From assembly GCA_000165425.1 (NCBI GenBank), contig CT868096.1:1-64000 (forward strand): a stretch of DNA of 64,000 bases, read 5' to 3'. This document shows positions 1,072 through 40,241 of this stretch, one piece after another. Below the pieces are notes generated by a model that was not told the origin of the DNA, made no database searches, and saw only the letters and a program-made list of their open reading frames with translations. Numbering within the stretch: position 1 is the first letter of the stretch; each line of letters starts with the position of its first letter. A program made the translations under genes and the position numbers. Source of the DNA: Paramecium tetraurelia. Its lineage: Eukaryota.

Positions 1072-4000
1072 TCAATCCATAAAGTTGAAAACAATGAATA
1101 TTTTGTGTACACTCCATAGTTTAATCCGATAGTACCTTATAGCAGGAGAGAAATTGACTGAAGTAACTGTTGATGAATGACCATTTAATTTGGCTTTTTA
1201 TTATCCTGTCTTAACATCCCATAAACGAATAGAGTTATCTCCACTACCAGATGCTAATGTAGTACCATCAGGAGAGAAATGGACTGATAGAATTCCATTT
1301 TCATGACCATCTAATTTGGCTATTTATTATCCTGTCTTAACATCCCATAAACGGATAGAGTTATCTTCACTACCAGATGCTAATGTAGTACCATCAGGAG
1401 AGAAATTGACTGAAGTAACTGTTGATGAATGACCATCTAATTTGGCTTTTTATTATCCGGTCCTAACATCCCAAAAACGGATAGAAAAATCCCGACTACC
1501 AGATGCTAATGTAGTACCATCAGGAGAGAAATGGACTGAATAAACAAAATGCGAATGACCATCTAATTTGGCTTTTTATTATCCTGTCTTAACATCCCAT
1601 AAACGTATAGAGTTATCTTAACTACCAGATGCTAATGTAGTACCATCAGGAGAGAAATTGACTGAATAAACTGCATCAGAATGACCATCTAATTTGGCGA
1701 ATTATTATCCGGTCTTAACATCCCATAAACGAATAGAGGAATCTGAACTAACAGATACCAACGTAGTACCATCAGGAGAGAACTTGACTGAAGAAACTGC
1801 ATCATCATGACCATCTAATTTGGCTTTTTATTATCCGGTCTTAACATCCCATAAACGGATTGACTTATCCAAACTACAAGACGCTAACATATTACCATCA
1901 GGAGAAAAATTGACTGTGTTAACATATCTTGAATGACCATCTAATGAATATATATCATTAATCTTTATTCTCTTCCATTTGCACCCAAACATTTAAGCTC
2001 TATTTAGATTAATTGCATTTATGTTCACATCAGTCAATTCAGATTAGTTTAAATTACTTTGAAAAAAATTTCCTCCAACTATGGAAGTATTTTTGATTCT
2101 TATTTTCTCAAAATTGTGATTAGTTAGATCAATTTACATCTCAACTAATAAATTCAGTGAGTTAGATCCTCCCTATATAAAACTACTTTCAATGGCCGTC
2201 AATTGAACCAGAAATTTCAAAAACTCAATTATTGATACTTCATTTTTTATTTTTTAGATTAAATACTTTCTAGATTCTACATATGTTTCAATAGAATAAT
2301 TATCTAAAAAAAATTCATGTTTATTCAATGTTTTCAAAAGACTTAGCGTTGATTCAATATTTTTTTTAAAAGCATTTACTTTCAAATCTCTAATTAAAAC
2401 ATGAAACTTAATTATTTTCTCTTAATTTATTAAATGTGGTGAATATTCTAACCAATTCTTATCATAATTGTTCTCTTTTGATAGCTATTCTAATATCCAA
2501 TTGAATGTCTGCTTATTAAGTTCTTTAGATACCACTAATACAGAATATAAATCAGCCGCTATATAAAACTCTTGAATTGACTTATGGACAAATTAAAAGT
2601 TATTACCTTTTTATTTGATTAGAGAGCAACTTCTTAAATCCTTCTTATAAGAACCAAATTAATGATCATCATCATTAAAAAATTCATTTTACCACTTTTC
2701 ATCTTCTCTTTCTTCTTAATACAAAAATCCTTATTATTAATATTAAACCTATGTCGTTTATTTTGCACTCATTACTTTCGCAAGATTGATTGAATACTTT
2801 TTTAAGTCATGTAAGAACCTATCAATATGTAATGATTTTCCCAAGTTTCTCTACTTTTCGATTTATTGATGATGATATTAATTAATAAATTCATCGTAAA
2901 AGTCAAAACTTGTAAGATTGAGTTCAGATAATGCATTGCGAACAACTTCGATCATTCTATCTTTCAGAATGCTAATTTTTTAAAATGAATTGTTGAAGTG
3001 TTTAAGGGAGTGTTCGAAAAAGAGATTTTTGTTAAGATTTAATTCTTGAAAGTGGATAGCGATTGAACTTTCTTCCATTTTATTCCAGACCTCAACAGCA
3101 ATTTCAAAGTAATTAATTTTATCCAAGTTTTCCACATCGGTTTAGGTAACCTGTTATTCTTTTTCATTATTATCCTGTTTTTCTTTTTTCATTATTATTC
3201 TGTTATTCTTTTTCATTATTATCCTATTATCCTATTTCATTAATTTATTCTATTTCATTATTATTCTATGCTCTATACTTTTTCTTTTGCCTATTATACT
3301 TTTGAATCAAATAGTTACTTTTGTAAAACTCATAAAGCATAATTGGGAAGTTTTTTAGAAAATTTAATCTCAAATTGATTATCTCTGAGGCCTTCTCCAT
3401 CATTTTAGGCAACACTTAAACTATTATTTCCATCATATAGGGAGTTTCTATCAATCTATATAAATTTATTTGATTCATCATCTTTTCATACTTTTCAACA
3501 CTCCATAGTTTTTATAATTTTACCATTAGATTTCTTAAAGCTTCAACACTTTTTAAATTAAAGAATTAATTAATCTTCAAAAATGATAAAATATTATCTA
3601 TTTCTTTTTAATTCAAAAGAGCTTCACTATTAGCCTTTGTTGCCTCCAAACTCAAACACTATTCAAACAATTTTTCCCAATTAACTTCAAAATTATTGAT
3701 ATCCTACTCTCCTCGGTTTGAAATTTAAGATTACCATTCATATAATTCGTAAATCAACATTTTAATACTTTAAATTGCAAACTTTTTTAAATATTATTTT
3801 ATTTTTTTTAGATTAAATTTTTCAAGCTGAACTTCCTTTAAATTTTCTTTTTTTTCAGGTGCAAACCATAAGGCATAATTAACGCTTGTAAAAATTTCAC
3901 TTCTTGTAGTAAAAATAACAAGTGGGTCTGACCAATTCTATTTGACTTTATTATTCATATATAAATTTTTCTAAATATTCTCTAGTTTCATTTCATCATA

Positions 4001-7000
4001 GCTATCCATTATCAATAACAATCTAAATTCATTTTTCTCTAACATCTCTTTGCATTCTTTTAATTAAAGATCGTCAAAACCGTACTCATCTTGATGAAGT
4101 GTTTCCTCTACTGCTTAAAATACAGGGTTTTTTAAAGAGGGTAAGGAAATATAAATGGGGATGAGAATTCGATTTCTTATTTTTTTATTATTGTTATGTA
4201 ATTTCCAAATAAATTCTTCTATTTTCTTAGCTGTCGTACTTTTACCAGATCCAGCTACTCCATGAATTAATAACACTGTTTCTTTCTCTTCTAATAAAAA
4301 CTCATTCACTTCTCCTTTTGTATCATTAATTTACTCCAAATTTATCAAGATACTCTCCTCTTTCTTTTCGTCTACTATTGCTTTATGATAAATCTCCTTG
4401 GTTTCTAATGGTACGTAAATGGATTTTGTATTCTTAAGTGCAGCTTCTTTCAACACCTTCCATTTTCTAATTTCAAATAATTATTCAACAGATTTTCCTC
4501 TCAAGAATTTAATATCGTTACCTATGTTTTTGAGTTATTCCTTCATTTCATTGATTTTCCCCTCCACTCTAATCAAGCCTTTTCTGATATGATTAACAAA
4601 ATCGGTTAGCAGTCTCAATTATTAACCCATTTCACTAATATTTTTAATGTATTAATCTAATTGCTCTGTTGTTTCATCAAGTTCTTTAAGGCACAGATCT
4701 CGTTTGTTGAGATTAGCCTCATGAGAAATTTATTCTTACAATTCATCAATTCTGCTCAACATTTCCTACATTTCCCCTGCAATTCTATCTTATTAAGTCT
4801 ACCAATCTTTCGATAAAATCTGCATTTACATACTTATCAATTTTTCATTTTTCAAAAGGTTTCTAACTCTTAGATCTTTTTCTTGAACCCATAATTCAAT
4901 TAACTCTTTTTAACAAAATTGAGTAATTTTTTCTGCAAAGCTATGCAATGAAATCTAAATTATTGTTAAAACTAATCCCTATTTAATTTTCCATTCATCA
5001 TTATTGTATTAATCTTTAGAGAATTGATCTTACTGATTGGTTTTAACTTCTTATTCCTCATAATTTTCTTATAGGTATAATATTTTACTTAATTAAATTA
5101 GGTACTCTTGATCAAACTAAATTTCTATGAATTTCCACTTAGACTTCATTAGCTTTTCTTTTGTTTCAGCCATTAACTAATAGAGAAAATGAACAATATT
5201 TATTATTTAAGTATTCTTTTAATCTGATTAATTTTCATCATACAAGTTGATCGAAATTCTTGAAAAGTATTCTTTACTTGATTCTGTTTCATATTATTTT
5301 AAATTCGCAGTTGTGAATTGATATTCCTTCAATTGGTTTAACTGGTTTTAAAAACAACTTAAAAAACCTATATACATCTCCTCATAACATTCTTATAGAA
5401 CATCACGACTTTTAGTAAAATTTTTAACATTTTCAAAGAATTATGCTAACTTTTGCCTGGTTTATCTAGCTTTAATTTACAATAATTATAGAATGTTAAT
5501 AATGATTGATAAATTTTTTCTATTTTGGTTATTAGATTCGTCCTTATCTTCTTCCTTGATCTTATCATATTTTGTTTTTAATTCATTAAATTTTACTTTT
5601 AAATCATTTATTCTTTTTATGATTGGCATTCTAAAAATTTCCAGTTCTTAGTTAATGGAAGCTTTCAATAATTTAACAACATTTTCAACCAGTAATTGTA
5701 TTTATTCTCCTTCCTTGCAATTTTCTTAGTAGTTAATTTTTCTTAATTATTATAGTAATATCTCATACTTTTATCTCTCAATTTTCAATTAATCTTGATT
5801 GAGATTTTTATTTTCAATAATGTTTATTGATTAGTCTATAGAAAAATTTCTTATAAGTGTCATAGTTAAAGAATTAGTTTCTTCAAATAATTCTCCAAAC
5901 TCCTTTTCAATTAATTCTAAATGTATTCTTTCCAAATCAATCATTTTTTCTTCTAAAGTTAATTAAAATATAAGAAGATCTAAACTTCCTTTTAATATTA
6001 TTAAATTATTTTAATAGTCTTGTTATGTAATTTCTAACTTCATTAAATCAGCAATAGCCTATTGGTATATTTAACTGTCACAGCAGATTATTTGTTTTGG
6101 ATAACTCTAAATTACATTAAGAGGAAACCCATCTAAATTGATTTCACCTAGATACTTTAAAAATTCTTATGATGGAATTGAGAATATATTTTAAAAACAT
6201 TCTTTGAAAGTGATTAATTGCGATCTAAGTTTTAAAATATTCAGTCTTTGTTAGTGTAGAAATTAAAATGAAACTTACTAAGAATATTTTTTTTAAATTT
6301 CTTTCAATTATTCAGGTGAAGAAACAGTGTCTATTTCATACTGTAAAATTAGAAATGTCTACAACCTTAAATTTAATTCGTTAAATTAATTTTGAAGTTC
6401 TTAGATCTGGTGTTCATAATAAGAATTAAGGTTATTCAATAAACATTAAAAGTATTAAATTAAGCTCTTCTTTTGAAGTAACAAAATTTCTAGCTCAGAG
6501 ACTTATTTTACAGTTTATTCAATTAGTTTTAGCATGCATTAAGCTTCTTTCAAAAAACTTCTCAAGTTAGGAGTTGCACTAATTAAGGCAATTAGCTTCT
6601 ACTAAAACTTATTTAAGAAAGAAAAATTTTCTTCTGTTAGATTTAGATTTTATAATTACTTCTAAATCTCTTCTAACTATTATTACATCACTTTACTTTC
6701 ATTAGGTTCATTTTTCTTACTATTAAGATCTTAAATTGCTTATGATAATATTTATTCTAATAGTCTCAAAATGTATTTAATCTATTAAAAAATTTAAAAT
6801 TCATTATTTTTTTTCTAATCAAATTATTCTAATTAAAAGTTTTATTTCCTCTTACTTAGCCTAATAATTTTAATGATTTTTAGGGCGTTTTGGAAAAATT
6901 CTTTGAAGTTGAGATTTATTTTTTTTAATTATGAATTATGCTTGGCTTATTCTATTTTGGCATCAAAATACATATTTTATTTGATAAAATTTAAAAAATC

Positions 7001-8359
7001 TTTAACTATGATCCCCAATCTCTCATAATTTTCCTGAATCAAAGCTAGCAATTTATTGGAAATGATGAAATCAAGAAATTGTTAAATTTTGCAGATTGTC
7101 TTTTATTCATCTTTTTAGGGTTCTATACTTCCTAATTTTAATTTTAAATAAGAACCAAATGTGAAATAGATATTATCAGTTTTTTAATTCACTAAGAAGT
7201 CTTTAAGCAACATGAGGTTTTCCCATTCTATGAAAGTGTCCTCTAGTATTAATTTATCAATTTAAGATAGTTCTTTATTTTTAAATTAATTTAGTAAAAC
7301 CAAAGCTTAGTCATTGCTATGATTCAATTACATTAGAAACCCTTTGTTCTGATATTCCTTCCACATGAAATTTGATTTGGCTTAAAAATTGAAGGGGCTA
7401 GTAAGCTGGTTTAATTTTTTTTTTGTTATTAGAGGATGATAAGTTATGATTTTTCCAATCATTTAAATCCACAAAAAATGATTTTTCCAATTACTTTAAT
7501 TTTTCACAAGATTTTCGTGTATTTTATTCATATGTAATAGTATTTCTTCCAAATTCTAGCTGTCATTTTTCAAATTATTTATGATCTCCCATTACAAAAT
7601 ATCTATTTAAAAATAACTTTCATATTATTTTCTATTTTTCTAGACTGTATAATCATCATAAAGCAGAACGGCTCCCTTATACAATGATTTAAACAAATCA
7701 ACACTAGGTTTCATATCAAATATTGAGTTAATGATACCTTCTAAACAACCATGTAAAATATCTTCCCTTTCTTTACCATTATTTGGGGCCATCTGAAAAG
7801 AAGTTTAAGTTAGAGAAAGGTAAAGTTCCAATTATATTTGAATTAAATCATTTTTCTCTATTGACATTTCTTATCTTAATTGATCACAAATATCCAAAAT
7901 TTGATTCTAAGTATCCCAATTTATGAACCTTTACGCTTTTCTCATATGGAAACTAAATATCACTTTAGATAGAGATGCGGATATCCTTAAGATAAATAAA
8001 CTTTTAAATGAATCCGTTCTGATGTAGATTAAACAACTTTTCAATAATTTTTAAATTCCATCTATAATTAAGTTGTATGATTTCATGACCTTTTCTTCAT
8101 TTTTGATGAGTTTGTAAATGTTTTCCTCTTAAAAAATAAACCATTATATGGCTATCATTATTTCTTAGGCTTCTGATTAGTTAGCAGCAACAGTTGCTTT
8201 ACTAGAAATAATTTAGACAATAGAATCAAATCTAGTAATGAAAATATCTGTATCATAAATATCGGACTTTAAGTCTACATCTGTGTAGGGAATTGTTTTA
8301 GTAGATCCACAACCACCTCCACGTAATGTGGATGTTACTTTATCCAATAGGCCTGACAT
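1072..8359 (-). CDS. NACHT (STAND NTPase) + pentapeptide + WD40-repeat protein, NLR-like NWD family, ~2430 aa; one +1 frameshift or cryptic intron near 3190
   Basis: ATG 8359 [21 protein letters not shown]; Walker [10 protein letters not shown] (~4240-4262); Walker [29 protein letters not shown] winged-helix motif; GSNSLNLL plus pentapeptide-like [25 protein letters not shown] repeats; TGA 1072-1074. No intron needed in the stretches I translated except at the frameshift. Confidence 0.9.
1141..1945 (-). repeat. Tandem 126-bp (42-aa) WD40 repeats, 6 complete plus 1 truncated
   Basis: GH codons recur every 126 bp (~1934, 1808, 1682, 1556, 1430, 1304, 1178); consensus [42 protein letters not shown] with very high DNA identity. 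Confidence 0.95.
3151..3270 (-). repeat. Coding minisatellite, ~24-bp unit (QDNNEKEQ), inside the NWD gene
   Basis: Repeated units cag gat aat aat gaa aaa gaa taa on the minus strand, with degenerate copies upstream. Confidence 0.8.
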
Positions 8360-9299
8360 TATTAATAACAATTTAAAATTATAAATCAACGTCAGTATAA
8401 AAATGATTACAACCTAATTTTTTATTATAAAATAATTTTTTCTTTTGAATAATAAAAATTTTCTTTTTATTACAGATATATAATCAAATCTCATATTTTT
8501 ATGTATAGATATTATTTTATAAAGTTCTCCTTTATTTTAGCCCTTCACATTTGTGATTCAATTATTTGAATTTTAAATGCCACTATCAAATTCCAAATGT
8601 AAGAATAGTCAGTCCATTTTATCTTTCTACGAGAGATAGGTAAAACGAAAATCATTTATTATTCTCACTATGATTATCTGAGTTTATTCACCATAGTTTT
8701 TATCAATGAATCATTAATACTAAATCAGTTTAATCTTTCAATTTTTTTATAATAGAGTATGAAATCTTTAAGATAGAGGATTTTTGCTATAGTATGCTTT
8801 ATACCTAATTTTAAAGCATTAGTTTAAACATTTAAATAAAATTACAACTGAGGATTAGATCTTCTTATAATTAACAACTTAATTAATTATACTTTGAATT
8901 TGTATTAAATTATAACTCTTTCTAGACTTATTTTATTCATTAACTCCCTTATTTGAATCATTGAAGATTAATTATGACTTTAAGAAACAAAATGAAGAAA
9001 TTGAACAAGATTTTATCAGCATTGAATGCGTAAAAAGGGTACTTAATATTAATTCAAAGCTTTCATTTTTGATTGCCAAGCAAACAGAATCGATTTAATC
9101 TACAGATTGCCTTATAATTAATAGAAGGAGAAATCTCAAAATATCCTTTATAATTAAAAGTCAAAAGCCAATAACGATAATTATAAAAATTTTTCAAACA
9201 AAATTATAACTCGAAGCTACAATGATAATGTATTCTTAGGTGGTTAATGAGCTGCTTAAAATAACCTTACAATAAAAATAATATTCGAATCAAGTAAGA

Positions 9300-26477: not shown

Positions 26478-28932
26478 TCAAAATACTCTGCATTAACAAT
26501 CATCCCGAGTTGATTTACGATTTTAGGTCTTGCTTTTTACTTTTGTTTTATTTTAATTGCTTTTAATCATTTATTCTAATGCAGTTTCATCAATTATCAC
26601 TAAATTATCTTATTACTAAATTAAAATTAGATTTACCTCGCTTTATTTTATAAATGGCCTTGCTGATTATGAAGCTTCCACGGTAGACTGTAACCTAATT
26701 GCTTTCTTAAAATTATTTGGGCCAAACTCATCATTTGATTTACCTAAGATCATTTACAATTCATTTGAAATTTAATTTCTATCTTTGTGCTTGTTCTTTG
26801 ATTCAGTAAAAACTAAATCCTGGTTTTATTCAACTTTAGCTTTATCTTAACTTGGAAGTATTTCTATAACTTCAGTGTTTTCTGTCTTTTAAACCTAATT
26901 GTTACTTATTTCCCATCCTTTTTTTTCTTTCTCTTTTTTGGTTCCGCAAAATTCACTTTGCTTTTGTTCTTTTCTTTTTTGATTAATTTATGCAGAAGGA
27001 TCAAAAATCAAACTTTAGTCATTATTTTCCAATTAATTTTATTAAGTTTCTATTCTGGAGAGGTCTTGTTTAATGAAAGAAGAATTTAGGGATTTAGTTT
27101 CTTTACAATGACTTTTGATTCTTTATGTTTATCTTTTTAAGAAACTATCCATAATTAAACATGCTTTTAAAATATCCTTTCCTTCTTTTTTTTCTTAAAT
27201 AAAGGCATTTCCTGATTAAATGGCTCTCACCGCTGTTTTAAACTTTTGAGTTACTTTTACATTTTTAGTTTCCTCTTCACTTGATTCACTTTTTTCACTT
27301 TCTTCTTCTTTTTTCTCTTTTTGTTATACTTTATTAGTAGTATTCTAATTTTGTTATTACGATTATTCTAATAATTGTCTTTATGATGATATTCCTCCCT
27401 GTACGCTTTCTTAATCAATTATTTTTCCATAATTTGAATATTATACAGTATTGCCTGTGCTTTTGATAATGCCGTCAAATTTTATTTTAACATATTATTT
27501 TAGTTTCTTAAATCCTTCTTAGCAAACCATAGAATACAAAGATTAGATTAAATCTTCCCTTTCTATTTTCTGATTTCTTACAATATTTTCATCAGTAAAT
27601 AATTAATGACACTAAATTATTTTATAAATTTATTGCTTCGGCATTAATTAAAAAAATTTCTTAAAAAAGCCTTCTAAGCATCTTTATAATTCAGTTCTAC
27701 TAAAAGATTACTATCCGTAATAGTGAGAATTCAGGTATTTTTAGAATTTTTAGGTGAAGTATTTTTCAGATGCCCATTAAGAGTACTATGCACAATTCCA
27801 TAAAATCAATATCTTAGTTAAATTTAATTATTTACTTCTAAAAAAACTGATTGATTTACATTATTTTTTTGTTATTTGATTTTTAAACAATTTTGATGAA
27901 CACATAATTTGAGTGCTAGAAAATCAATAATTTTGTGAACTTTGATTTTTTTTGTTTCTTCTTATGTTTTTGCATCTACTTGCATTATTTTACTTAATGA
28001 TTATAAAATTTATTAAATAACATCAAAGGTCATCCATTTTTGAATGTTTTTAAACTTTAAAAGGATATTTTCAACGTCTCGATAAGATAATTTATAAGTA
28101 TTTTTTTCTTTGAAATAATCAATTCCCATTTCTTTTAAAATAGAAATCAGACTGGTTATATTCTTTATTTCTACTTCTTTTCCTTTAATGGTTTCAATCC
28201 CTTTTATAATCTCTAAACGTTTTTATTTATTCTTAATTTCTTAATAGGAGTATTCTAAATAAAAACTTAAAATATATGGGAAAATAAGTAAGTAATCAAC
28301 TTTGCTTTGGTCTTCTGGCAACAAAAAATTCTCGGAAATGTCATCAATTTATTTTTATGTTAATTTACCTTCAAAAGCATCTGCTTCAATTAAAGTTCTA
28401 TCACTAAACACTTTAAATTTCTTATGTCCCAAGAAATCAAGGACAATGGTGAACATTTTCGTCAGTTCTTTCCTTTCTAATGTAAAATTTTTGTTTGCAT
28501 CAAAAGATGCATAAAAATCAATGTAGAAATCATGTAAATCCCTCACTGAAATAACGGAAAAAAAATATATAAGTTCCCTATGTTAAAATGAATAGAATTA
28601 CGGATGAAGCACACTTATATCATTATATGTTTCCATATTCATTAAAGGTTTGCTGTTGGTTAATAAGGAGAATCCTTTCTTTTTTTGGTCTTCTTCTACT
28701 TTTGAAAAGTTAACAAGCATATAAAATATGGTGTAAAAGCTGCAATCTTAATTACGAACAAAAAACTAAAAGTCTAATCAAGTAGCTTTATATTCTTACC
28801 TTCTCCATCTTTCACTCCCTTTTTAGAGGAATTGAAAGATTTAAAAAATGAGGAGGGTTGCTTCATCAATTTACCATGCTTTTCATCTTTTTCTTTATTT
28901 TGAGATAATGATGTTTCTTTCCTTGAAATCAT
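26478..28932 (-). CDS. EF-hand-like protein with C-terminal CaaX-like motif (paralogue A)
   Basis: DFYASFDANKNFTLERKE loop; ends DDCQCRVF-stop; colinear similarity to 29029..31453. Confidence 0.8.
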
Positions 28933-29028
28933 AATGGAAGTAATAAATGTTTAGAAAACAATAATTTATTGTTAATAATTCAGAATTATAAAGTTATGAT
29001 AAAAATTGCAATTATATACTAAATTTAA

Positions 29029-31453
29029 TCATTATATAGAGCAATAATAACATGTTGAAGATCTATCTTTTGGTTTTTTGCCTTTAGCTAAATTCTATTA
29101 ATACAAAATTTAGGTTTATAATTAAACATCATCTATAACTACTTAGAATTTACCTTCGTCATCCCTAAAGTCCTAAAAATGAATAATTTTTATACATCAT
29201 CTGTAAGTTAAAATAACTATTATTTTGATTAAGAAGTTTGGAACATTACTTTGGATGCATCTTAAACAGATGGCATGTTTCCATAATAAGCATTTTTAAA
29301 ATTTTGAGGGCCATAATTTTTACCTTCTTTTCCTGCAACAGTGAAAAGGTCGTTAGATTAGGATTCAGAATTCTTTCTTATGTCTTTAATAACAATCTAT
29401 GGTCGTTGTTATTGAAATAGTTTTTTGTCTTTTTTTTCTTCTCCCTGTTCTTTTTCTTATTCAGGAAGTGCTGCTTCAGGTGCTGTTAATTTTTTTGATT
29501 CTTCCATTTAAACTTTTTTAACTACGTTGGTTTTCACAGATGATACTTCTTCATTTTTGGAGCATGTCTCTAATAAAACTTCTTATTCATCAATTTTTGA
29601 AGCTGTAATATCGTTCTAGTTATATTTACTTTGCTGCATTTTCTAATGCATTTGAGTTTGTCTTTTTAAAAAGCTATCCATAATCAAACAAGCTTTGAGA
29701 ACATCTTTTTTAGATTCAGCCTTTTAAGCAAAAGCTTATTCTGAACTGATTACTTTGACAACTCGTTTAAGTTTACCTTTAGCTGTCAATTCTCTCTCAT
29801 GGTCACTCTCTTCTGATTCCGAGTTGTTTCTTTGATTGTGTTAATTTTATTAGCTTGAGATTTAAGATTTTTTTGATTTTTCATCGAATTTTGGAGACTT
29901 CTGTTATTTTTCACTTGATGGAGGAGAATGAATTTAGGAATCTTCATAAAAATCTTTCCCTTACTTTTAATATTAACTTACTCTATCTCCATTAGACTTA
30001 TTAACTCCATCATAACTTATTCGAATATACTCTTTTAATTTTCTGTAGCCATCCTTGCACATCATGTTAAATAATTCATTTACTAAACTTTCCGTAGTAA
30101 TAGGAGTTTGAATGATTTTCTTTCCCTGCACCTCAGGATGCTGCTCTAGTATGACTTTTATTAAGTCTTTTGGCATCAATTGAAACTTCTTCTTAAAGAA
30201 TGCTTCTAATATTTTTATTGCTTCCGGCCTTGATAATTGAGTCTAGTCTTTATAATGTTTAATAAGGAACTTGGAAAACTATTATTTGATTGTAGCTTCC
30301 TTCATAATCTACCCAAACATTGCTGTATTCCATAAAACTAAGATTTCTAAGTAAGCTGAAGGGGGTTTAGATTTATCCTTGTCTTGTTTGCTGATATTTA
30401 GGCAATTCTAATGAATGCATAATTTTAGAGCTAAAAAGTTTACAATTTTATAAAGCTTTAAAGGTTTTCCTTCATTCTAAGTTTTGGGATCAACTTCCAT
30501 CAATTTAGCAAGTTGATTTATTATTTACTTGATTATGTCAAATGTTATCCATTTTTATATGTTTTTTAATTTAATTAATACATTTTCAACATCTCTGTAT
30601 GTAAGACATGTTGTTCTCTTATCTCTGATATAATCTATACCCATTTCTTTAAGAATTGTAACTAAACTAGTGATGTTTCTGATTTCAACTTCTTTCCCTT
30701 TTAGAATTTCAGTGCCCCTCATCAAATCCAATCTCCCTTACCTATACTTTATCTGCGAATAGGTAAATTCCAAAAAAAACCCTAAGATGTAGGGGAATAG
30801 CAATAGGTAATCCATTTTTGATTCCTTATCCAAATCTCTAAAGTTGTCTATCATTTCATTGTAAACCTTGTCATCTAACTGATTATCATATAATGAAGGA
30901 TCGCTTAAGAAAAGATCAGTTATGACCTTAAATTTTTTTGCTCCCACACATTTATTTACAGCTATATCCAATAATTACTTAAATTCTGCAGGTTCTAATG
31001 AGAAATTTTTATTTTTATCAAAAGTAGCATAAAAATCAACATAAAAGTCATGAAAATCTCTAATTGAGATTATTTGGAAATAGTATACTAGTTCACTAGA
31101 ATATTAAAATATCTTACGTTCTTATATAACGTATATCCTCAACCTATTTTGTAATCGGTGCGTATGAATTAAGTGGAGTTAAAACTGATTATTTTTTCAA
31201 ATATTATTCCATTCCATCAAAATTTAGAAGCAGATACATTAAAATTCTCACACAGTGATCCTATCCTTTGGTTAAAAATTGTATTTCTAAAAATTCACAT
31301 TTATATACCATCTTCCTGAGGTTTAAACAAAGTATTGGAAAATTTTGAAAAAAACGATTTCTATCCGTTAAGATTTTTACTCGTGTTCTAACGAGCTAAT
31401 GACCCCTTTGATAGATTACTGTCTTATCTTTCATATGTATTTTGCTTTGACAT
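29029..31453 (-). CDS. EF-hand-like protein with C-terminal CaaX-like motif (paralogue B)
   Basis: DFYATFDKNKNFSLEPAE loop; ends TCYYCSIQ-stop after two tiny introns; shares KGKEVEI.NITSL..ILKEMGIDY and LKACLIMDSFLKRQTQ with paralogue A. Confidence 0.8.
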
Positions 31454-32024: not shown

Positions 32025-35000
32025 ATGAGTTAAAATATGAATTTATCTTAAAATCTTCGTTATGGATCTTTTATAAGAATAGCTGGCAAAGGGAACGGTG
32101 GAACTAAAGGTATTATAACTTCCAAAGGGTAACACCATCAAATATTGATCTGTTAGTTTTTTCGATCATGCTGTTTATTTCTAAACATATGAAGATATGG
32201 ATGATATCAATAATTTTAGGGACGGAATCTTTCAAATATTGCCTAGAGGAAGTTTTGAAATTCATGATGAATATTTGAAAGGAATGTAATTAAATCTCTA
32301 AAAATCATAGGGATAAATCACCGAGTTTGCAATAGAGGATGAAATCTGAAAAAGAGCAGTATTTCAATATGATAGATAATAAAATGAATGAAGAAGTCTA
32401 TTTTAGGTATTAATTTGAAAAATATTTTTGTACAGTTCAGAAGTAATATTTTAGCATGTCGAATCCGGACAGTATTTAGCCTGTTCGGAAGAGTGCAGCG
32501 ATTCAAGAAGTGATAGCTTTGGACTAAAACTATAATAATTTTTATCCAGCAGAATTATATTCAAAATGGAGCCAAGTAAAAGTTATCAACAAACAGGAAG
32601 GCCAATAATTTCCAAACAATCAGTCAAAATCCAATCTGATATAACGAAGTTTTGGATCGATAAAAATATGAGATAGCCAGTATAATTGGATCATAAATCG
32701 ACTTAAGCTGGATTGAAAATATAATTAAAAGGATTATAAGAAGATTCTCACAGATATGAATTGATTGTCAGCCATTATTCTGACAGTGAATGGAAAATAT
32801 AATTATATGATAATTATGAGAAGCACTAGCAAAATAAATTAAAGCTAAAAACCAACGAAGTAGTTACTTTTAAATGTCCTAAAAATGAAGCATATTTAGG
32901 AGCTGATTTATAAAATAACACTATTGTTCTTAAACCAACTTTGCACAACTAATAAATACCTGTAGAATGTTTATGGGAGCTACAATTCCAAGAAAAACCA
33001 AATAGTGAATTGCCAACTATAACATTATAACCTAGAACCTTAGCAGCAATACGACATTCATTTTTAGGATAAAATAATCTATTTGTTCCTAATGTAAACC
33101 AATAGTACAATTAAAAAAATGCCACAGAAAATTAACAATAAAATTAATCTAAATTTAAGAAAAATATCTAAAAGTAGTTAAGATTAAGACATGTAATGAC
33201 TGGCAAATTGTTATTTTGTTAAGATTTATTTGATGCTGATGATTGTTTTCCAGCAATACTATCTGATGATTCATGCACAATAGGCTTGTAATTGGCAAAT
33301 AGATATGAAAGAGAATTTATGGATTTATCGTATGTTAATTTAGTCAGAGATGATAATGTACTTACATCAATTTCAACAAAATAATCAACGAAAACTTTAA
33401 GTGATGTGCGCATTAAGAAATCAGATAAAATACAAGGAACAAATGGATTCTTTAAATAGTTAATATAAGAAAAAGATAGTATAAAATGTGGTTTCAGGGA
33501 TCGAGCATTTAGTAAACCATTCATTATTCAAAGAGTCAAATAATCATTTTTTAAAATAGTCTTACAACCATTTTCAGCTTATGGTTAAATGCTATACTTT
33601 GTTCAATAGCTATAAACAAACCCTTTGAATTTTCCTTATGTGATCCCTCCTGAAAGAATGTATTAAATTTAATTTTTATTGAATCGACTGCATGAATATT
33701 TAATGGATAAAATTGATATAAGTGATGAAAATGCAGATGATTTACCTATTTTTGAAAGATAAATAATCCTCAAAGAACTTTATTTCATTGAAATATTGGT
33801 CGAATTGCTGTATCATTTATGTTATAAAAAAGGAACCAAAAAATTATAGGTTTGGAGAAAACAAAAGGAAAACATTTAAACTATTTTTTCATCCACATAT
33901 TAATTGATGACAAAGCTCATCTAAAATAATATGGTAACAAAACTTTACGCATCTTAATGGCTTGAGATGTTCCTGCATTAATATATGAGTTTAAATTAAC
34001 CTGCCATTCAAACTTTCCTTTCCGAAATGTTAGATAATAATAAAGAGGCAATACAAAAATTCTTGAATGAAAATATCATCAAAAAATTGATAGAGCTTAT
34101 CACATAGTAATCACCTCATGACAAATATCTAAAGATCTTGAATGCAATCTGTGTTTCTAGCAACTAAGCTATCAGAGAAAATCAAAGACTAGTTCTGGAA
34201 AACTTTTTTAAAGTTGTTGCTCCAAGTACAGCATGTTATTTTATTATTATTTAGATTTCAAATTTGATTTTAAGATAAAATAAGGCCATATTTACATTCA
34301 ATCAGCGGAAGAATTAACATATTCTAGATGGTAGAATTTAGAATAATTTTACAAATCCAGTTTGATGAATGATAATTTAGAATACTGGAATTATTTCATT
34401 AGTTATTTTGATTTATTAGGAGATGTAGCGATGAATAGATTTGCATAAGCTAAAGAGTTCATTGATTAAAATTACTCATTGGAAATATTTTGCATGATCT
34501 TACATGAGGCATAATCATATCACATGTTCAATTTGATGAAACCTTTTTTAAAGTTGATTCGATATGCTTATATAGACACTCCCCCTTACTAAAAGTTTAA
34601 GAAATTAAGAGTTATTTAATTTAAAGATTTGTAAGGCGATTTTATTGATCATTCAACAACATTACCAAAAACAAGTCCATTATTGGATGTAATGAGGTTT
34701 CTATTATAGCAATTAGAAAATATAGATTAATTACACAATAATATTGAATATTCTAAAAACTTACAATCAGTTCTATAATTACTTAAATGTTCAATAGAAA
34801 TGCAATTTTGGGTTGATATGGATTAGATAAAAGTAATATTAACTGCAATGCTATAACATTTGCTCAAGTATTAAGAATTTTAAAATGATTAAAGATTAAA
34901 TGGAATCTCCAAATGTTTAACTTAGTTCTAAAAGTATTATCCAACTGAGTAAGTTGTATTAATCTGAAGAGAAAGAAACTCACATTCATAAAAAAATCAA

Positions 35001-38000
35001 ATCGACCAGACTAAATGAAACAAATAATATATTTATGACATGCAAACAATTAGCCTGTGAAATAATTAATACCATTTTTGATCTAGAAAATAATATAAGG
35101 GTATTTACATGCTCCAAATTATTTAAAGAATAATTACTATAGTTAGATCTAGTAGATCCTAATTTGGCTAATATCAATAATAATTAAAAGAGTTTAAAGA
35201 CGAGCATTGATGTATAGAAAATGTCCAAAAAGAGCAATGCTTTTATCAAAGTGATTTAATAAAAGTTCAAAAATTAAAATATTGCTGAAGAGAAAAACTT
35301 ATATGATATAACTAATTGGATTAATAAATTTAGGTAGATAGTCTCTGATAGATCTTTGTCCAATTTTGAAAATTTTGAATTGATATTTGCTGAATTATCA
35401 TTTTATGAAAATCTCTATTTACCGAAATATTCCTTAGAAATTCTATCTAGAGCCTATGGATAAAGAAAAGAATTAATTTAAAATTTTGAAAAAGTAATAA
35501 TTGTTGTTTCTGGTAAAACTCAAGAACTAAGTTTATTAACAAAGCAGATCATGAAAAAATTAAATATATTGTATTAAACTGAGTTCTACACTATGTATAA
35601 GGAAACTAGCAATAACATTAGAACAAGCTTAATTTGGTACCATTCGAATGAACATTAGAAGGCTGGTCTGATGTAAAACCTTTTTCAATTAGGATTGTAT
35701 TTAAAAAAGGACTTTGATAAAGGAAGGTCGTTGAATCCTTTAAATTTTGAAGATTATAAACCAGAAAACAATTCAACTATAGCATTTTGCGAGAGGGAAT
35801 AAAATTACAAATTACATTAAGCAATTTTAATAGCTGAAGAAATTCACATACCGCTATTAGAATATATCTATAAATTTAAAGCAGATTAATCAACTATCTA
35901 TTGGAAATTCTTACATTCTATATATGATTTTATCACAATTCTTATTTGGAACAACTAAGAGAATAAATAAATCATCATAAATAACAAATAGTTGATGTAG
36001 AGCATAGAGCAACATCTAAAATTTAATATTGGAGCCATTGATTTTTTGAAGGCTTTGTATGCAAATAATAAATCATTGTTACTTAGTGAAAGGGAAATGA
36101 CACTTATATTGAATTCTGTTGTGCCAGTATGCAATGAAGAGCCCATCAATAGTTATTTTAAATCGAAAACATTAGACTTCATCAAAGCTTTATTGTTATT
36201 TAATTCTAATTATATCACATCAAACCAAACTGTAGTCCTTCAGAAGCTACAAGAGAAATAGTTCAATAAAATAATATTACAATTTAATATTTATGATGAC
36301 TAAACTCCGATTTCTCCAGGTGAGAACAATTTTAGTGATGTTACTTCTTCATTAGACAGCGAAATCGATCAAGAGACTATGATATCAGAGTTGGTAATTA
36401 AAAATTGGATAAATTAATATGAAAAAAGCTATGAGAATATTGGCTATGGATTTCATGAATTGTACATCTCCCCAGAATTAACATACCTTTACACTTTCTT
36501 TTCTTTGTTTAGTCAATTAATTGAGGAAAAGCATATGATAAATATAAAGAAATGTTTGAAAATTCATAAATTCAATGATTTAATACTACTGCTACATCTG
36601 GCTCAAGATTGCTGGCCTTTGAAAAGACATCTCCGAGCATATATTAATCGATTGTATTATAGTAAGGTAAGTGATAATTTTGATTTAATTGTCAAAGTTG
36701 ATTTGGTGATTATGATTGATGATTTATAGAAGATTATAGACTATTTAATATTGCCATAGCATTCTTATATGGCGATGACAATTATTAAAGCTCCCATTAG
36801 ATATAAGTATTTAATGAGTTATATATACTTAAACTTGGAGGAGATACTAATATCATTAAATAGTTTATTTTTAAACGAGTAGTTCCTTGAGTATTTGGAA
36901 GAATTAATACTTTTCAACTAATAAAATTCAATTTATAGATTACACTTCTAATTATTTGAGATTTGCTAAAAGCTTTTGATAATTGAAAAAATCTACGTTA
37001 AAGAAAACTTGGGTCATTTGTGTTAATTATTATTGGATGTATTTTAAAGTATAATCTCTGGGTTTGAAACTAAAATATTATTGATGAGAGAAGGCTTGTA
37101 TATAAGTATGATTGAGGAAATGCTCTTATCTCAATACATCAAGGGCTCGAATCAATAGGATCTGACAAAGACTTAGGTGAGTAAATTATAGCAAATTTAA
37201 AGAAATAGAGAGATCTACAAATAATTGTAATAGAATAGTCATGATTCATCAGTTAAATAATATTTGGTTCATTAGGTATTCTGCTTAGATTAATAATTTG
37301 TTAAAGAAAGTAAATTACAAAGTACTTTAGAATTTTGGAAAACCTAATCCAAGTAAAGATATAAATCATTTAAGTAAGACATGAATGATTTAATAAATCA
37401 TAAGTTAAGAAGAATTATGAATAATTGGAGCTTTGTTCCTTAATTCTCATAGTTTCTAGATGAAGAATTTTATGAAGTATGCAATAAGTTATCTTCAATT
37501 GGTAGGCAATCTTAAGATGCTTATTAATCGAAGTACGAAGTGACAACACTTTAAGATTATATCTAAAACATCATTTCAATCTGTGGAAATACTAGAGAAT
37601 AACAATTTTCTGATGATATTAGGATTTTCTTTTTGAGATTGCTTAGCAGATTAATTACAGAGAAGAATTTAAGTAATAAATAAAAAATGGTAGAGGTGGA
37701 TCTTTGGACCAGTGAATTTTGGATCGATTATAAATAAGAAATAAATCATGCTTAGAATTTACTTGCAAAATGTGGTGCATAAGATTTGATCTTATTAATT
37801 TTATCAGAAAGCTTTTTAGAAATTAATTTATCATTGTTAAATGAATGTCTCTTATTTTCAATAGCATTTTTGTTAGGAGGGAATACTTAAGCATAAAATG
37901 CAATTTTATTGAAATTAAAATAAGATTCACAAAATTAAATATTAACTAACATCAAAATCATCATCACAAAATTAACTAAGGTAATCAATAATAATTTTTC

Positions 38001-40241
38001 TATTGTCACATATAACAACACCAAAGGTTGCGATTTTATATAGACAGTCGATAACTTTGACTTCTATAATACTAATACTAAAGTTATGCAAAGAGTGAAT
38101 GTTGTCGATCCTGATGACTTTAAGGAAACGAATTTCAAAAAATAATGCTTAGATGTGTTATGTCGATTCTTTAGAGTGATGCAATTACTATGTGAAAATA
38201 ATAATAGTGAAATGAAAGAATTTTTCAGAAGACAAACTGATGATGTATAAATATAATATAGTATATTAGTAAAACATAGCAAGAATAAACTCAATAAATT
38301 TTATTGAATTCACTAGTGTGTAATTAAGAGCATATTTAAAAATATTGTCTAGAGCCATCATTATTATCCCTGCATCAATACTTGACTTCATTAATGAAGT
38401 AATTTAGCTACCTTGCATTGAAAATTAAATAACTTTATGTCATACTACCTTTTTTGAGGATGTCAGCAACATGGCTCATTTCTTTGCTAATAAATCAAAT
38501 CAACTTCAAAGATTATTTGATACTGAAGATGACTTGTAAGAGTTGTAAGAATTATTCAATAAAATTCTTCAGACTGTTTTATTGGTTTTAGAAGGAAATG
38601 AAGAAAAGATTTATAAGGATATTTAGAACAAATTAGAAGCCTCGTTTCTCATTAGCTTCTTAAGTCTAAGTTTTGAATAACTTAACATTGAAAACATCAA
38701 TGATTTAGAAATGTATAAATTTATTAAATCTATATTTTAGTTATTTGTTATAATAGGATAAGATCTTTAATTCAGATATGCTTCGAATTTTAAACGTATG
38801 CATTATTGAATAAAAAATGGCTTCTTATTAGCAAAGTCGATGGATATAATAATTTCATGAGCAATTAAGTGTAAATCCAATTATAAAGGATATTTATGAT
38901 AATCTTATAGTTTTAGTAACAAATATTTATAAATTAGATTCATAACATAGAAATAGTCTATGAAGGGAAGTCCATGACAGTATTCTTTCCTTATCATCCT
39001 CTTTTTAACTTATTATCTGAATCATCAAAACAAGATTTATTATTTTAAATAAATAGAGAAACCTAAAGAGATAAACTGCTGGGTTTGCTTAGTGCAACCA
39101 ATATCTTATTTTATGAATTAGAACACAATTATAAGTTAAACCACTATAGAATTCCCATTACGTAAAATAATCTTAATGTAATGCAAAAATTATCCTCTGT
39201 CTTGGCCTTGTTAATAAATTTATCAATGGTATGATTTTGATCATTTAAATATAGATTTTTTTCTATACAGTAGTCGTTAAAGGGAATACGTATTTGTTAA
39301 CATCAACTCTGTACAACTCTTTAATCATAAAAATGCTCTCTGTCAGTTAGCTATTCTCATAGATTATCTTATTTATAATGGTTAGTTTTCAGAGGATTCC
39401 AATTTATCTATAAAAAAACAGCAAAGGCAATGACAAATTAAGTCTATTATTAGTGATCATTCAGGAAGATACTTGTTTATTATTGTTTCTATTGGTTTTA
39501 TTGTCTTTTTTTGGTGCCTTCATAAATAGCACAGTATTTGTGATCCATCTTGTTGAAATATTTAGTCGAGTAACTATCTTAAAAAATGTGTTTTAAGCTA
39601 TTAGTTATAATGCTAAACAATTATTGGTTGTGGCATTCTTAGGAGTACTTTTTGTATTTGCCTTTTCAGTTATAAGTTTTAGTGTTTACTTTGATGATAT
39701 CTATTAAGAGGAATAGACTGAAACATGTGATTCATTAATTACTTGCATGATAACGCTTATAACTTCTGGAGTGATTGGTAATAGTATGATCAATTGGGAT
39801 CCTTTAAAATTCTTTTTTGATATGCTTTTCACAGTGTTTTTTGGATTGCTTTTTACCAACATTGTTTAAGGTATCATGATCGACACATTTGCAGAATTAA
39901 GAGATTAAAGACAAAAGATTGAAGATGATATAAAAAATAGATGTTTCATATGTGCAGCATAGAGAGGTGAGTTGGAAAATAAAAATTAATCATTTGAATA
40001 GCACATTCAAGAAAAACATTTAATATGGAATTATGTATTTTATGTGAAATGTTTATGGTTAAAGGAATGGACAGAATATACTGGATTAGAGTATTGGATC
40101 TATGAAAAAATAAAATAAGATGATACAAGTTGGTTTCCAGAATCCGTCATTGATGGCAAAAATATAGCAGAAAGATTAGATTAATTAGAAAATCTATTAT
40201 CATAAGTAATAGTCTATTAAGAGAATAATTCAGGAGGATGA
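32025..40241 (+). CDS. IP3-receptor/ryanodine-receptor family Ca2+-release channel (Paramecium CRC type), several tiny introns
   Basis: N-terminal LRYGS..FQILP, CLWEL..RLRHVMTGK (MIR-like), RIH-like YLKILNAICVS..IRENQ, RIH-associated FRVMQLLCENNN..MKEFFRRQ and LPCIENQ, TM region, GIMIDTFAELR, CFIC..H..WNY, YTGLE, WFP. Confidence 0.93.

What the first reader, a model, noticed from the sequence alone, without database searches (positions are those of the whole stretch)
8297..8359. Ubiquitin-like LRGG site directly before a cryptic myristoylation/palmitoylation signal at the N-terminus of an NLR-like protein
Seen: the NWD protein begins [21 protein letters not shown]. Established: LRGG is the C-terminal recognition motif of ubiquitin/ISG15 cleaved by deubiquitinases; G-x-x-x-S/T-K is the N-myristoyltransferase consensus; a Cys next to the Gly is a typical palmitoylation site. 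Inference: cleavage after LRGG would release a 15-aa leader and expose GCGSTK for dual acylation. That would be a protease-gated membrane-targeting switch on a putative immune receptor, or a tripwire for LRGG-specific proteases of intracellular bacteria or viruses.
Basis: partly seen in the sequence, partly recalled or inferred. Interest (0 to 1): 0.8.

Follow-up and report, generated by a model that had tools for sequence, protein, structure and literature searches.

The report
Conserved LRGGGC tail on Paramecium NLR-like proteins
A six-residue motif, LRGGGC, sits in the floppy first stretch of a whole family of Paramecium immune-receptor-like proteins and is kept almost unchanged while the rest diverges, so it is probably a site for cutting or fat attachment, though no experiment has tested this.

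Summary
The minus-strand gene (ATG at 8359, ciliate code) begins [21 protein letters not shown]. After removal of one 28-nt intron it equals an annotated 2419-aa Paramecium tetraurelia NACHT-WD40 protein.

Of 70 family proteins, 44 carry the motif region and 40 of those have exact LRGGGC, against about 0.0001 expected from composition. It persists in five sequence clusters, including P. bursaria, that share only 19-25% identity with this protein in the adjoining domain. It lies in a predicted disordered tail (residues 1-31) ahead of a new all-helical domain.

- No member starts with Met-Gly.
- No ubiquitin fold precedes LRGG.
- Cleavage and acylation are untested.
- The invariance differs from the rapidly evolving NLRP1 tripwire.

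My best reading, at confidence 0.3, is a cassette that is cut and then acylated. Palmitoylation without cleavage and a docking motif are close rivals. I found nothing in print on this motif. This is a well-supported new motif whose mechanism is inferred but testable.

The parts
1072..8359 (-). Whole CDS of the NACHT-WD40 (NWD-type) gene, including the 28-nt intron and the stop codon at 1072-1074
   Evidence: The spliced translation equals P0004 (2419 aa) exactly. P0004 was named by its source as a P. tetraurelia NACHT domain-containing protein.
8297..8359 (-). Codons 1-21, [21 protein letters not shown] (the finding's own coordinates)
8327..8359 (-). Variable leader, codons 1-11 ([11 protein letters not shown])
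   Evidence: In the close aurelia set the distance from Met to the motif Leu is 11 or 7 residues. Across the family a Met lies within 25 aa upstream in 39 of 44. The leader sequence is poorly conserved.
8309..8326 (-). Core motif LRGGGC, codons 12-17 (TTA CGT GGA GGT GGT TGT)
   Evidence: Exact in 40 of 44 motif-bearing family proteins. R13, G14, G16 and C17 are invariant in alignment A3, and L12 and G15 reach 90% or more.
8267..8359 (-). Predicted disordered N-terminal tail, residues 1-31
   Evidence: pLDDT is below 50 for residues 1-31 in both AlphaFold2 models, the 320-aa and the 1200-aa.
7403..8278 (-). All-alpha N-terminal domain, residues 28-319, found only in Paramecium; no known fold assigned
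   Evidence: AF2 mean pLDDT 77.5, pTM 0.75, 11 helices after the tail. Foldseek found no hit at E<=1e-3. The best VIA Z was 10.8, against generic helical repeats. A phmmer search of 1.84e9 representatives gave 49 hits, and every one for which a source name was seen is Paramecium.
3779..4276 (-). NACHT NTPase domain (P0004 residues about 1362-1527)
   Evidence: Pfam PF05729, E 2.5e-9
4235..4261 (-). Walker A / P-loop, GVAGSGKST (residues 1367-1375)
3291..3318 (-). Annotated 28-nt GTA...TAG intron; its homologous stretch is coding in paralogues
1075..1965 (-). WD40 beta-propeller, seven GH-type repeat starts, last blade truncated
   Evidence: Pfam WD40, E 6.4e-81; repeat starts and the truncated last blade

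Best explanation
LRGGGC is a family-defining short linear motif in the disordered N-terminal tail of Paramecium NACHT-WD40 (NLR-like) proteins. I read it as a cassette that is first cut and then acylated. A cellular cysteine protease that reads the ubiquitin-tail-like L-R-G-G would cut inside L-R-G-G-G and remove the short variable leader. The cut could also be made after Arg13 by an Arg-specific protease such as a metacaspase. Either cut exposes an N-terminal glycine next to Cys17. N-myristoyltransferase and a palmitoyl transferase would then attach lipids, tethering the large helical-NACHT-WD40 protein to a membrane through a flexible linker of about 15 residues.

Shown here: the motif, its near-invariance across deep paralogues, its fixed R-to-C spacing, its position in a disordered tail, the enrichment of Ser/Thr and Lys/Arg just after it, and the absence of any Met-Gly start.

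Inferred: the cut, its exact position, the protease, both lipidations and the membrane location.
For: (1) Conservation. In a count made without anchoring on the motif, 29 of 33 proteins whose phmmer alignment covers query residue 12 have exact LRGGGC, and 33 of 33 have R-G. With the later hits added, 40 of 44 are exact, against 0.0001 expected.
(2) Depth. There are five single-linkage clusters at 40% identity. The four distant ones are 19-25% identical to this protein in the domain with the motif excluded, and all keep the motif. One of them is from P. bursaria.
(3) The distant relatives' alignments begin at query residues 9-12, which is at the motif.
(4) Flanks vary in sequence and length while the spacing from R to C is fixed at three residues in 42 of 44.
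(5) Residues 1-31 are predicted disordered, and they do not dock on the following 1170 residues.
(6) All six conserved residues are accounted for: LRGG as P4-P1, G as acceptor, C as acceptor.
(7) 0 of 70 family proteins start with Met-Gly. Evolution has therefore kept L-R ahead of the glycines rather than taking the simple co-translational route.
(8) Downstream residues resemble known dual-acylation heads. Lys/Arg stands five residues after G16 in 31 of 44. A recalled PROSITE-like NMT rule is met in at least one register in 44 of 44, against 27% of all glycines in these proteins.
(9) Some members have extra cysteines beside C17 (CC in P0048, P0049, P0052 and P0073; CGLC in P0033).
(10) Precedent. 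Plant CNLs such as RPS5 (Gly2, Gly3, Cys4) need N-terminal acylation for localisation and cell death (PMC11467418, passages read).
Against: There is no direct evidence of cleavage or lipidation. Most deubiquitinases need the ubiquitin fold (recalled), and none precedes the motif: Pfam finds no domain upstream in 18 relatives and the leader is short. The register after an LRGG cut (G16) meets the recalled NMT rule in only 25 of 44, with Phe or Trp at the position where small residues are preferred in many aurelia members. That rule is permissive, with a 27% background. In one subfamily (P0031, P0035, P0049, P0052, P0073) the nearest upstream Met is 16-55 residues away, so the motif is not strictly terminal there, although gene models may be over-extended. 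My library searches found no precedent for a ubiquitin-tail-type cut exposing a myristoylation site. This gene gave no reads in three RNA-seq runs.
Confidence: 0.3

Rival explanations
1. S-palmitoylation only. The tail is not cut. Cys17, with neighbouring Cys where present, is S-acylated and anchors the protein. L-R-G-G-G serves as a recognition or spacer element for a specific palmitoyl transferase.
For: Cys17 is invariant, some members have extra adjacent cysteines, and the motif sits in a disordered tail with basic residues after it. This reading needs no unknown protease. S-acylation of NLRs is known in plants and, from recall, for NOD1/NOD2.
Against: It does not explain the near-invariance of L12, R13 and exactly three glycines with fixed spacing (42 of 44). 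From recall, S-acylation sites have no such strict consensus. The leader is not clearly hydrophobic enough to give the first membrane contact.
Confidence: 0.25
2. Docking motif. The tail motif, with Arg13 flanked by small residues, binds a partner. The partner could be the protein's own or a neighbour's WD40 propeller (as the WDR5 'Win' arginine does, recalled) or an adaptor. The binding would give auto-inhibition or drive assembly.
For: It is an invariant short motif in a disordered region. R13 is 100% conserved. The C-terminal propeller is WDR5-like by Pfam.
Against: AF2 does not dock the tail on residues 32-1200. The invariant Cys and the clustering of extra Cys are not explained. The WD40 part could not be tested.
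Confidence: 0.15
3. Tripwire or bait. LRGG mimics the ubiquitin tail, so that LXGG-type or deubiquitinase-type proteases of intracellular bacteria or viruses cut the receptor. The cut activates or relocates it.
For: LRGG followed by Gly matches the recalled consensus of ubiquitin/NEDD8 tails and of viral PLpro- and adenain-type sites. It lies in a disordered N-terminal region of an NLR-like protein. A bait that copies an invariant host sequence could itself stay invariant.
Against: Known tripwires sit in rapidly evolving, poorly conserved linkers (PMC7857732), whereas this motif is kept in all five clusters. Pfam finds no FIIND-like self-cleaving module. No pathogen protease was examined.
Confidence: 0.08
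4. Other signals: a short mitochondrial-type presequence with an Arg-2 processing site, a fungal-style amyloid signalling motif, or an RNA/DNA-level element that merely encodes these residues.
For: Many leaders start ML and are rich in S/T/K with an Arg two or three residues before a possible cut. Fungal NWD2 carries a short N-terminal signalling motif (PMC7889193). The codons are G-rich in an AT-rich gene.
Against: Import of a 2400-residue WD40 protein is implausible, and several leaders contain acidic residues. All 26 significant hits of the tail-profile search carry the motif at the N-terminal end of the same family, and none is a partner protein with the motif at its C-terminus. The conserved core is only six residues long. 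The RNA fold around the start is ordinary, z = -0.82.
Confidence: 0.07

Closest known systems
Acylated plant coiled-coil NLRs (RPS5/PML7, PML5, SUMM2; 'potentially membrane localised' CNLs)
   Same: They are NLR-type receptors with Gly-(Gly)-Cys at the start of a short unstructured stretch before a helical N-terminal domain. The acylation residues are needed for membrane localisation and cell death (PMC11467418, passages read; PMC13043302, search listing only).
   Different: They begin Met-Gly, so myristoylation is co-translational, with no leader and no L-R. They are NB-ARC-LRR proteins, not NACHT-WD40. Here 0 of 70 start Met-Gly.
Post-translational myristoylation after caspase cleavage (BID, PAK2, actin recalled; BFSP1 in PMC10297038, abstract seen)
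   Same: An internal glycine becomes an N-terminal myristoylation site only after an endoprotease cut.
   Different: The cut is Asp-specific. The sites are far inside the proteins and are individual cases rather than a family-wide N-terminal cassette. There is no adjacent palmitoyl-Cys rule.
C-terminal processing sites of ubiquitin, NEDD8 and ISG15 precursors, and LXGG sites of viral papain-like and adenain-type proteases (recalled)
   Same: The tetrapeptide L-R-G-G is followed by a small residue and cut after Gly-Gly.
   Different: No beta-grasp ubiquitin fold precedes the site: the leader is 7-20 residues, Pfam finds nothing and AF2 predicts disorder. This is resemblance only; no protease was tested.
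NLRP1/CARD8 protease 'tripwire'
   Same: A protease target site in a disordered N-terminal region of an NLR-family sensor.
   Different: The tripwire is rapidly evolving with the lowest conservation (PMC7857732) and works through FIIND-dependent functional degradation. Here the site is invariant and no FIIND is found.
Fungal NACHT-WD40 NLRs (NWD2, HET-E type) with short N-terminal signalling motifs
   Same: The same NACHT plus WD40 architecture, with a short conserved motif at the very N-terminus (PMC7889193).
   Different: The fungal R0 or PP motifs are amyloid-forming stretches, described there as homologous to the repeats of the HET-S prion-forming domain, and are shared with a partner effector. 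Here there is a 6-residue Gly-rich core, no partner was found, and about 1350 residues of the protein's own N-terminal region follow.
Bacterial double-glycine leader peptides cut by C39 peptidase transporters (recalled)
   Same: A leader of about 15 residues ends in Gly-Gly, with a hydrophobic residue at -4.
   Different: That is a bacterial export system for small peptides. This is a 2419-residue protein with no Pfam-detected signal or membrane domain, in a eukaryote.

Membership tests
STAND NTPase of NACHT-WD40 (NWD/NLR-like) architecture | NACHT domain above the curated threshold, with a P-loop | tested here: met
   PF05729 scores 37.6 bits against a cut-off of 26.7, E 2.5e-9. Walker [10 protein letters not shown] is at residue 1367.
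STAND NTPase of NACHT-WD40 (NWD/NLR-like) architecture | C-terminal WD40 repeat propeller | tested here: met
   PF00400 E 6.4e-81, with six stretches passing on their own. There are seven GH repeat starts and the last blade is truncated.
Co-translational N-myristoylation substrate (Met-Gly start) | Gly at position 2 after the initiator Met | tested here: not met
   The protein starts MSG. 0 of 70 family proteins start MG.
Post-translational (protease-exposed) N-myristoylation substrate | Sequence after the candidate Gly fits the NMT rule G-{EDRKHPFYW}-x(2)-[STAGCN]-{P} (recalled PROSITE pattern) | tested here: inconclusive
   The rule is met at G14 in 40 of 44, at G15 in 38 of 44 and at G16 in 25 of 44. 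The background at any Gly in these proteins is 470 of 1736, or 27%. The rule is permissive.
Post-translational (protease-exposed) N-myristoylation substrate | Demonstrated endoproteolytic exposure of the Gly and attached myristate | not testable with these tools
   This needs N-terminomics or click-labelling.
Ubiquitin-like modifier precursor | C-terminal tail L-R-G-G | tested here: met
   LRGG is present in 42 of 44. The exceptions are P0045 (LRGD) and P0049 (IRGC).
Ubiquitin-like modifier precursor | Beta-grasp ubiquitin fold immediately before the tail | tested here: not met
   The leader is 11 residues here. Pfam finds no domain upstream of the motif in 18 relatives, including those with long annotated extensions. 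Residues 1-31 are predicted disordered.
NLRP1/CARD8-type protease tripwire | Rapidly evolving, poorly conserved cleavage region | tested here: not met
   The motif is exact in 40 of 44 and present in all 5 clusters. Compare PMC7857732.
NLRP1/CARD8-type protease tripwire | FIIND/UPA self-cleaving module that releases an effector after N-terminal degradation | tested here: not met
   Pfam reports only NACHT, WD40-type and weak unrelated hits.
Fungal or bacterial NLR amyloid signalling motif (R0, PP, BASS) | The same motif present at the end of a separate effector protein | tested here: inconclusive
   The tail-profile search gave 26 hits at E<=1.4e-3, all with the motif at the N-terminal end of the same Paramecium family. 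Only 8000 candidates of 92-2000 aa were scored, so a partner could have been missed.

The most novel reading that the evidence does not exclude
The tail is a ubiquitin-tail bait. LXGG-specific or deubiquitinase-type proteases injected by intracellular bacteria, or made by viruses of Paramecium, cut after LRGG. The cut exposes Gly-Cys, the receptor becomes lipidated and moves to a membrane, and the NACHT-WD40 protein switches on. That would be a protease-triggered, lipid-switched NLR in a protist. The bait could stay invariant because it copies a host sequence the pathogen enzyme cannot stop recognising.
Probability: 0.08. Interest if true: 0.9.

Novelty: new variant of a known kind. Interest (0 to 1): 0.6.

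Why it matters
NLR-like STAND proteins of protists are almost unstudied, and what their N-terminal parts do is unknown. This work defines a Paramecium-specific N-terminal module, a disordered tail with an invariant LRGGGC followed by a new helical domain, shared by dozens of NACHT-WD40 genes.

If the motif is a cut-then-lipidate signal, it would be a second, independent case of NLR membrane anchoring by acylation, after the plant CNLs. It would also be one gated by a protease. A ubiquitin-tail-like site serving as the gate for myristoylation has no precedent in the papers I could search.

Paramecium allows microinjected GFP reporters, RNAi by feeding and click-labelling. A handful of point mutants (L12/R13, G15/G16, C17) would therefore settle the question. 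Even if the mechanism proves different, the motif is a clean handle for finding the enzyme or partner that reads it.

Tried and rejected
- Whole-genome search: no genome is held for this window, so paralogue DNA, codon-level selection and a proteome-wide motif count could not be done.
- RNA evidence for the 5' end: three oligo-dT RNA-seq runs gave 0, 2 and 0 reads on 7900-8700, and none on 7900-8520. This tests neither the start codon nor the intron.
- Tail-to-WD40 docking by complex prediction: the job was not folded under a rule of the tool. This gives no information.
- Fold assignment of residues 28-319: Foldseek found no hit at E<=1e-3. The best VIA-align Z was 10.8, against generic helical repeats, which is below the level the tool gives as noise for helical models. 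The ESM Atlas best score was 0.83, a lead at most. PADLOC gave 0 families, and NCBIfam gave only sub-threshold propeller and pentapeptide noise.
- The motif outside the family: the tail-profile search gave four weak hits at E 2-10. Three are internal chance matches, two in IscA-like proteins and one in a TruA-like protein. The fourth, P0077, an unnamed 309-aa GC-rich protein, begins MPSSAIQ-LRGGGCGASK. All six of its relatives lack the N-terminal part, so conservation there cannot be judged and it may be chance.
- Ubiquitin domain upstream of the motif in members with long annotated N-termini: none found.
- RNA structure at the motif: z = -0.82.
- Earlier scan notes: nothing relevant.
- Literature: nothing on this motif or on Paramecium NACHT N-termini. 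The one paper containing 'LRGGGC' is about gold nanoclusters (listing only).

Full report
**1. What is there**

The finding's coordinates lie on the minus strand of very AT-rich DNA (GC 0.22-0.35). Only the ciliate code gives long reading frames here. From the ATG at 8359 the frame reads [25 protein letters not shown]. Joining 8359..3319 to 3290..1072 removes a canonical 28-nt GTA...TAG intron, and the translation then equals the database protein P0004 exactly. P0004 is 2419 residues long, and its sources call it a Paramecium tetraurelia macronuclear 'NACHT domain-containing protein'.

Pfam finds a NACHT domain (E 2.5e-9, above the curated cut-off) with the P-loop GVAGSGKST, and a C-terminal WD40 propeller. 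LRGG occurs only once in all six frames of the window.

One uncertainty remains. An in-frame ATG at 8494, with no stop before 8359, would add 45 residues typical of translated AT-rich DNA. RNA-seq could not settle this: three runs gave no reads on 7900-8520. The closest relatives are annotated to start at the same MSG.

**2. Is it more than chance?**

- A word-indexed search with residues 1-400 returned 14 proteins. Twelve have an N-terminal region and all twelve carry LRGGGC, with a Met 11 or 7 residues before the Leu.
- A full phmmer scan of residues 1-320 against 1.84 billion representatives gave 49 hits at E<=1e-3.
- All 40 family proteins for which I saw a source name are Paramecium: tetraurelia, primaurelia, pentaurelia, octaurelia, sonneborni and bursaria.
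- To avoid selecting by the motif, I re-aligned all 60 proteins then in hand with phmmer and read what aligns to query residues 12-21. Thirty-three alignments reach residue 12. Of these, 29 read LRGGGC. The other four read LRGGGF, LRGGGSC, LRGDGC and IRGCGCCG. The remaining 27 are fragments or alignments that start further in.
- After a further profile search the tally is 70 family proteins, 44 with the motif region and 40 with exact LRGGGC. From the family's own amino-acid composition, 0.0001 occurrences are expected in these 58,826 residues. No LRGG occurs beyond residue 400 of any of these proteins.
- With the motif excluded, the adjoining domain splits into five clusters at 40% identity. 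The four distant clusters are only 19-25% identical to this protein, yet all keep the motif.
- The distant relatives' alignments start at query residues 9-12, so the motif marks the N-terminal edge of homology.
- In alignment A3, R13, G14, G16 and C17 are invariant, and L12 and G15 reach 90% or more. That is as conserved as the few invariant tryptophans of the domain.

The motif is real and under strong constraint.

**3. Anatomy**

- *Upstream of the motif.* The leader varies in sequence and length. The annotated start is within 25 residues of the Leu in 32 of 44 proteins, and a Met lies within 25 residues upstream in 39 of 44. In one subfamily the nearest Met is 16-55 residues away. Over-extended gene models are likely, because TAA and TAG do not stop translation in this code.
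- *Downstream of the motif.* After Cys17 come a small residue (G, C, I, V or A), Ser/Thr-rich positions, and a Lys/Arg five residues after G16 in 31 of 44. Four members have a second Cys directly after C17, and P. bursaria has CGLC.
- *Structure.* AlphaFold2 puts residues 1-31 below pLDDT 50 and residues 28-319 in a confident all-helical domain (mean pLDDT 77.5, pTM 0.75). In a 1200-residue model the tail is again disordered and does not dock. The helical domain matches no known fold convincingly.
- *Domain context.* All full-length members are NACHT plus WD40. No ubiquitin, protease or FIIND-type domain was found, including in the long annotated upstream extensions.
- *RNA.* Folding of the RNA around the start codon is ordinary (z = -0.82).

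**4. How it most likely works**

The pattern is a six-residue core with fixed spacing, in a disordered tail, flanked by free sequence. That is what a recognition site for an enzyme or partner looks like.

Two facts add weight. None of the 70 proteins has taken the simple Met-Gly route. And L-R is kept even at 19% domain identity.

The details are less secure.

- A recalled PROSITE-like rule fits G16 in 25 of 44, G15 in 38 of 44 and G14 in 40 of 44, against a permissive background of 27%.
- The scissile bond could therefore equally be after Arg13 (an Arg-specific enzyme such as a metacaspase, recalled) or after Gly14.
- Deubiquitinases normally need the ubiquitin body, which is absent here.

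I put the cut-then-lipidate cassette at 0.3, palmitoylation without cleavage at 0.25, a docking motif at 0.15, a pathogen-protease bait at 0.08 and other signals at 0.07. The remainder is for something not thought of.

The bait version is weakened by the contrast with NLRP1, whose tripwire is the least conserved, fastest evolving part of the protein (PMC7857732, passages read). A bait that copies the invariant ubiquitin tail could nonetheless stay fixed.

**5. Comparison with what is known**

The nearest functional parallel is the acylated plant CNLs. RPS5 is described as potentially myristoylated at Gly2/Gly3 and S-acylated at Cys4, and PML5 loses cell death and localisation when G2, C3 and C4 are mutated (PMC11467418, passages read). 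The Gly-Gly-Cys of RPS5 is the same triplet as G15-G16-C17 here, but the plant proteins start Met-Gly.

Protease-exposed myristoylation is known after caspase cuts (BFSP1, abstracts seen; BID, PAK2 and actin recalled). Fungal NWD2 shares the NACHT-WD40 layout and a short N-terminal motif, but that motif is an amyloid template shared with a partner (PMC7889193). I found no such partner.

Full-text searches for the motif string, for LRGG with myristoylation, for ubiquitin fusion with myristoylation, and for Paramecium with NACHT, NLR or acylation found nothing on this. The library holds open-access papers and bioRxiv only, so a report elsewhere cannot be excluded.

**6. Verdict**

It is the most economical account of the conserved residues, but its register detail fails in about half the members, and cleavage, lipidation and any immune role are untested.

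If the mechanism holds, it is a new variant of known kinds: NLR acylation and protease-exposed myristoylation. I score interest at 0.6, for a clean and unexpected motif with a cheap, decisive set of experiments.

Noticed in passing
window 3164-3330 (-): The annotated model removes a canonical 28-nt intron (3291-3318), but the homologous peptide (SNYLI..Y...) is coding in paralogues P0007, P0008 and P0011. Reading through gives the homologous sequence and then runs into a TGA near 3164. The downstream part is in another frame, and one extra A in an A-run near 3190 would explain the shift. The cause is either a 1-nt indel (a decaying copy or an assembly error) or rescue by a cryptic intron. About 40 residues differ between the two models.
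   Followed up: partly
window 1072-1200 (-): The seventh WD40 blade is truncated (...[14 protein letters not shown] then [12 protein letters not shown]... and stop). Together with the absence of RNA-seq reads on the 5' end, this hints that this copy may be weakly expressed or degenerating.
   Followed up: no
window 8360-8494 (-): An in-frame upstream ATG at 8494 has no stop before the annotated start, and the 45 added residues look like a basic-then-hydrophobic segment. A fragment from a relative (P0060) has a similar 'LIYYFKFLLK' stretch just upstream of its MSG. This is probably conserved AT-rich 5' UTR rather than coding sequence, but it is unverified.
   Followed up: partly
protein P0077 (unnamed ENA record; not in the window): An unrelated, GC-rich 309-residue protein with no Pfam family begins MPSSAIQ-LRGGGCGASK, the same layout of leader, motif, small residue, Ser and Lys. 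Its relatives share a C-terminal 'FVSHWWGEP...YWVCAYANNQW' region, and one (P0083) shows a repetitive Leu-rich C-terminal stretch that I did not scan. All of them lack the N-terminal part, so the motif's conservation there is unknown.
   Followed up: partly
window 32566-40238 (+): Neighbouring ORFs carry RIH, RIH-associated and ion-transport domains, which points to a RyR/IP3R-like calcium-release channel gene split by introns.
   Followed up: no
window 48306-50774 (+) and 58017-59648 (+): The first is a hybrid-type histidine kinase (HisKA + HATPase_c). The second is a Ser/Thr protein kinase with a Gln-rich tail. Both look like ordinary Paramecium genes, unrelated to the finding.
   Followed up: no
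window 26481-30854 (-): ORFs at 26481-27905 and 27809-28720 resemble the ORF at 28983-30854. They share stretches such as 'KEVEI.NITSL..ILKEMGIDY' and 'LKACLIMDSFLKRQTQ'. This looks like a tandem duplicate of a gene with no Pfam family.
   Followed up: no
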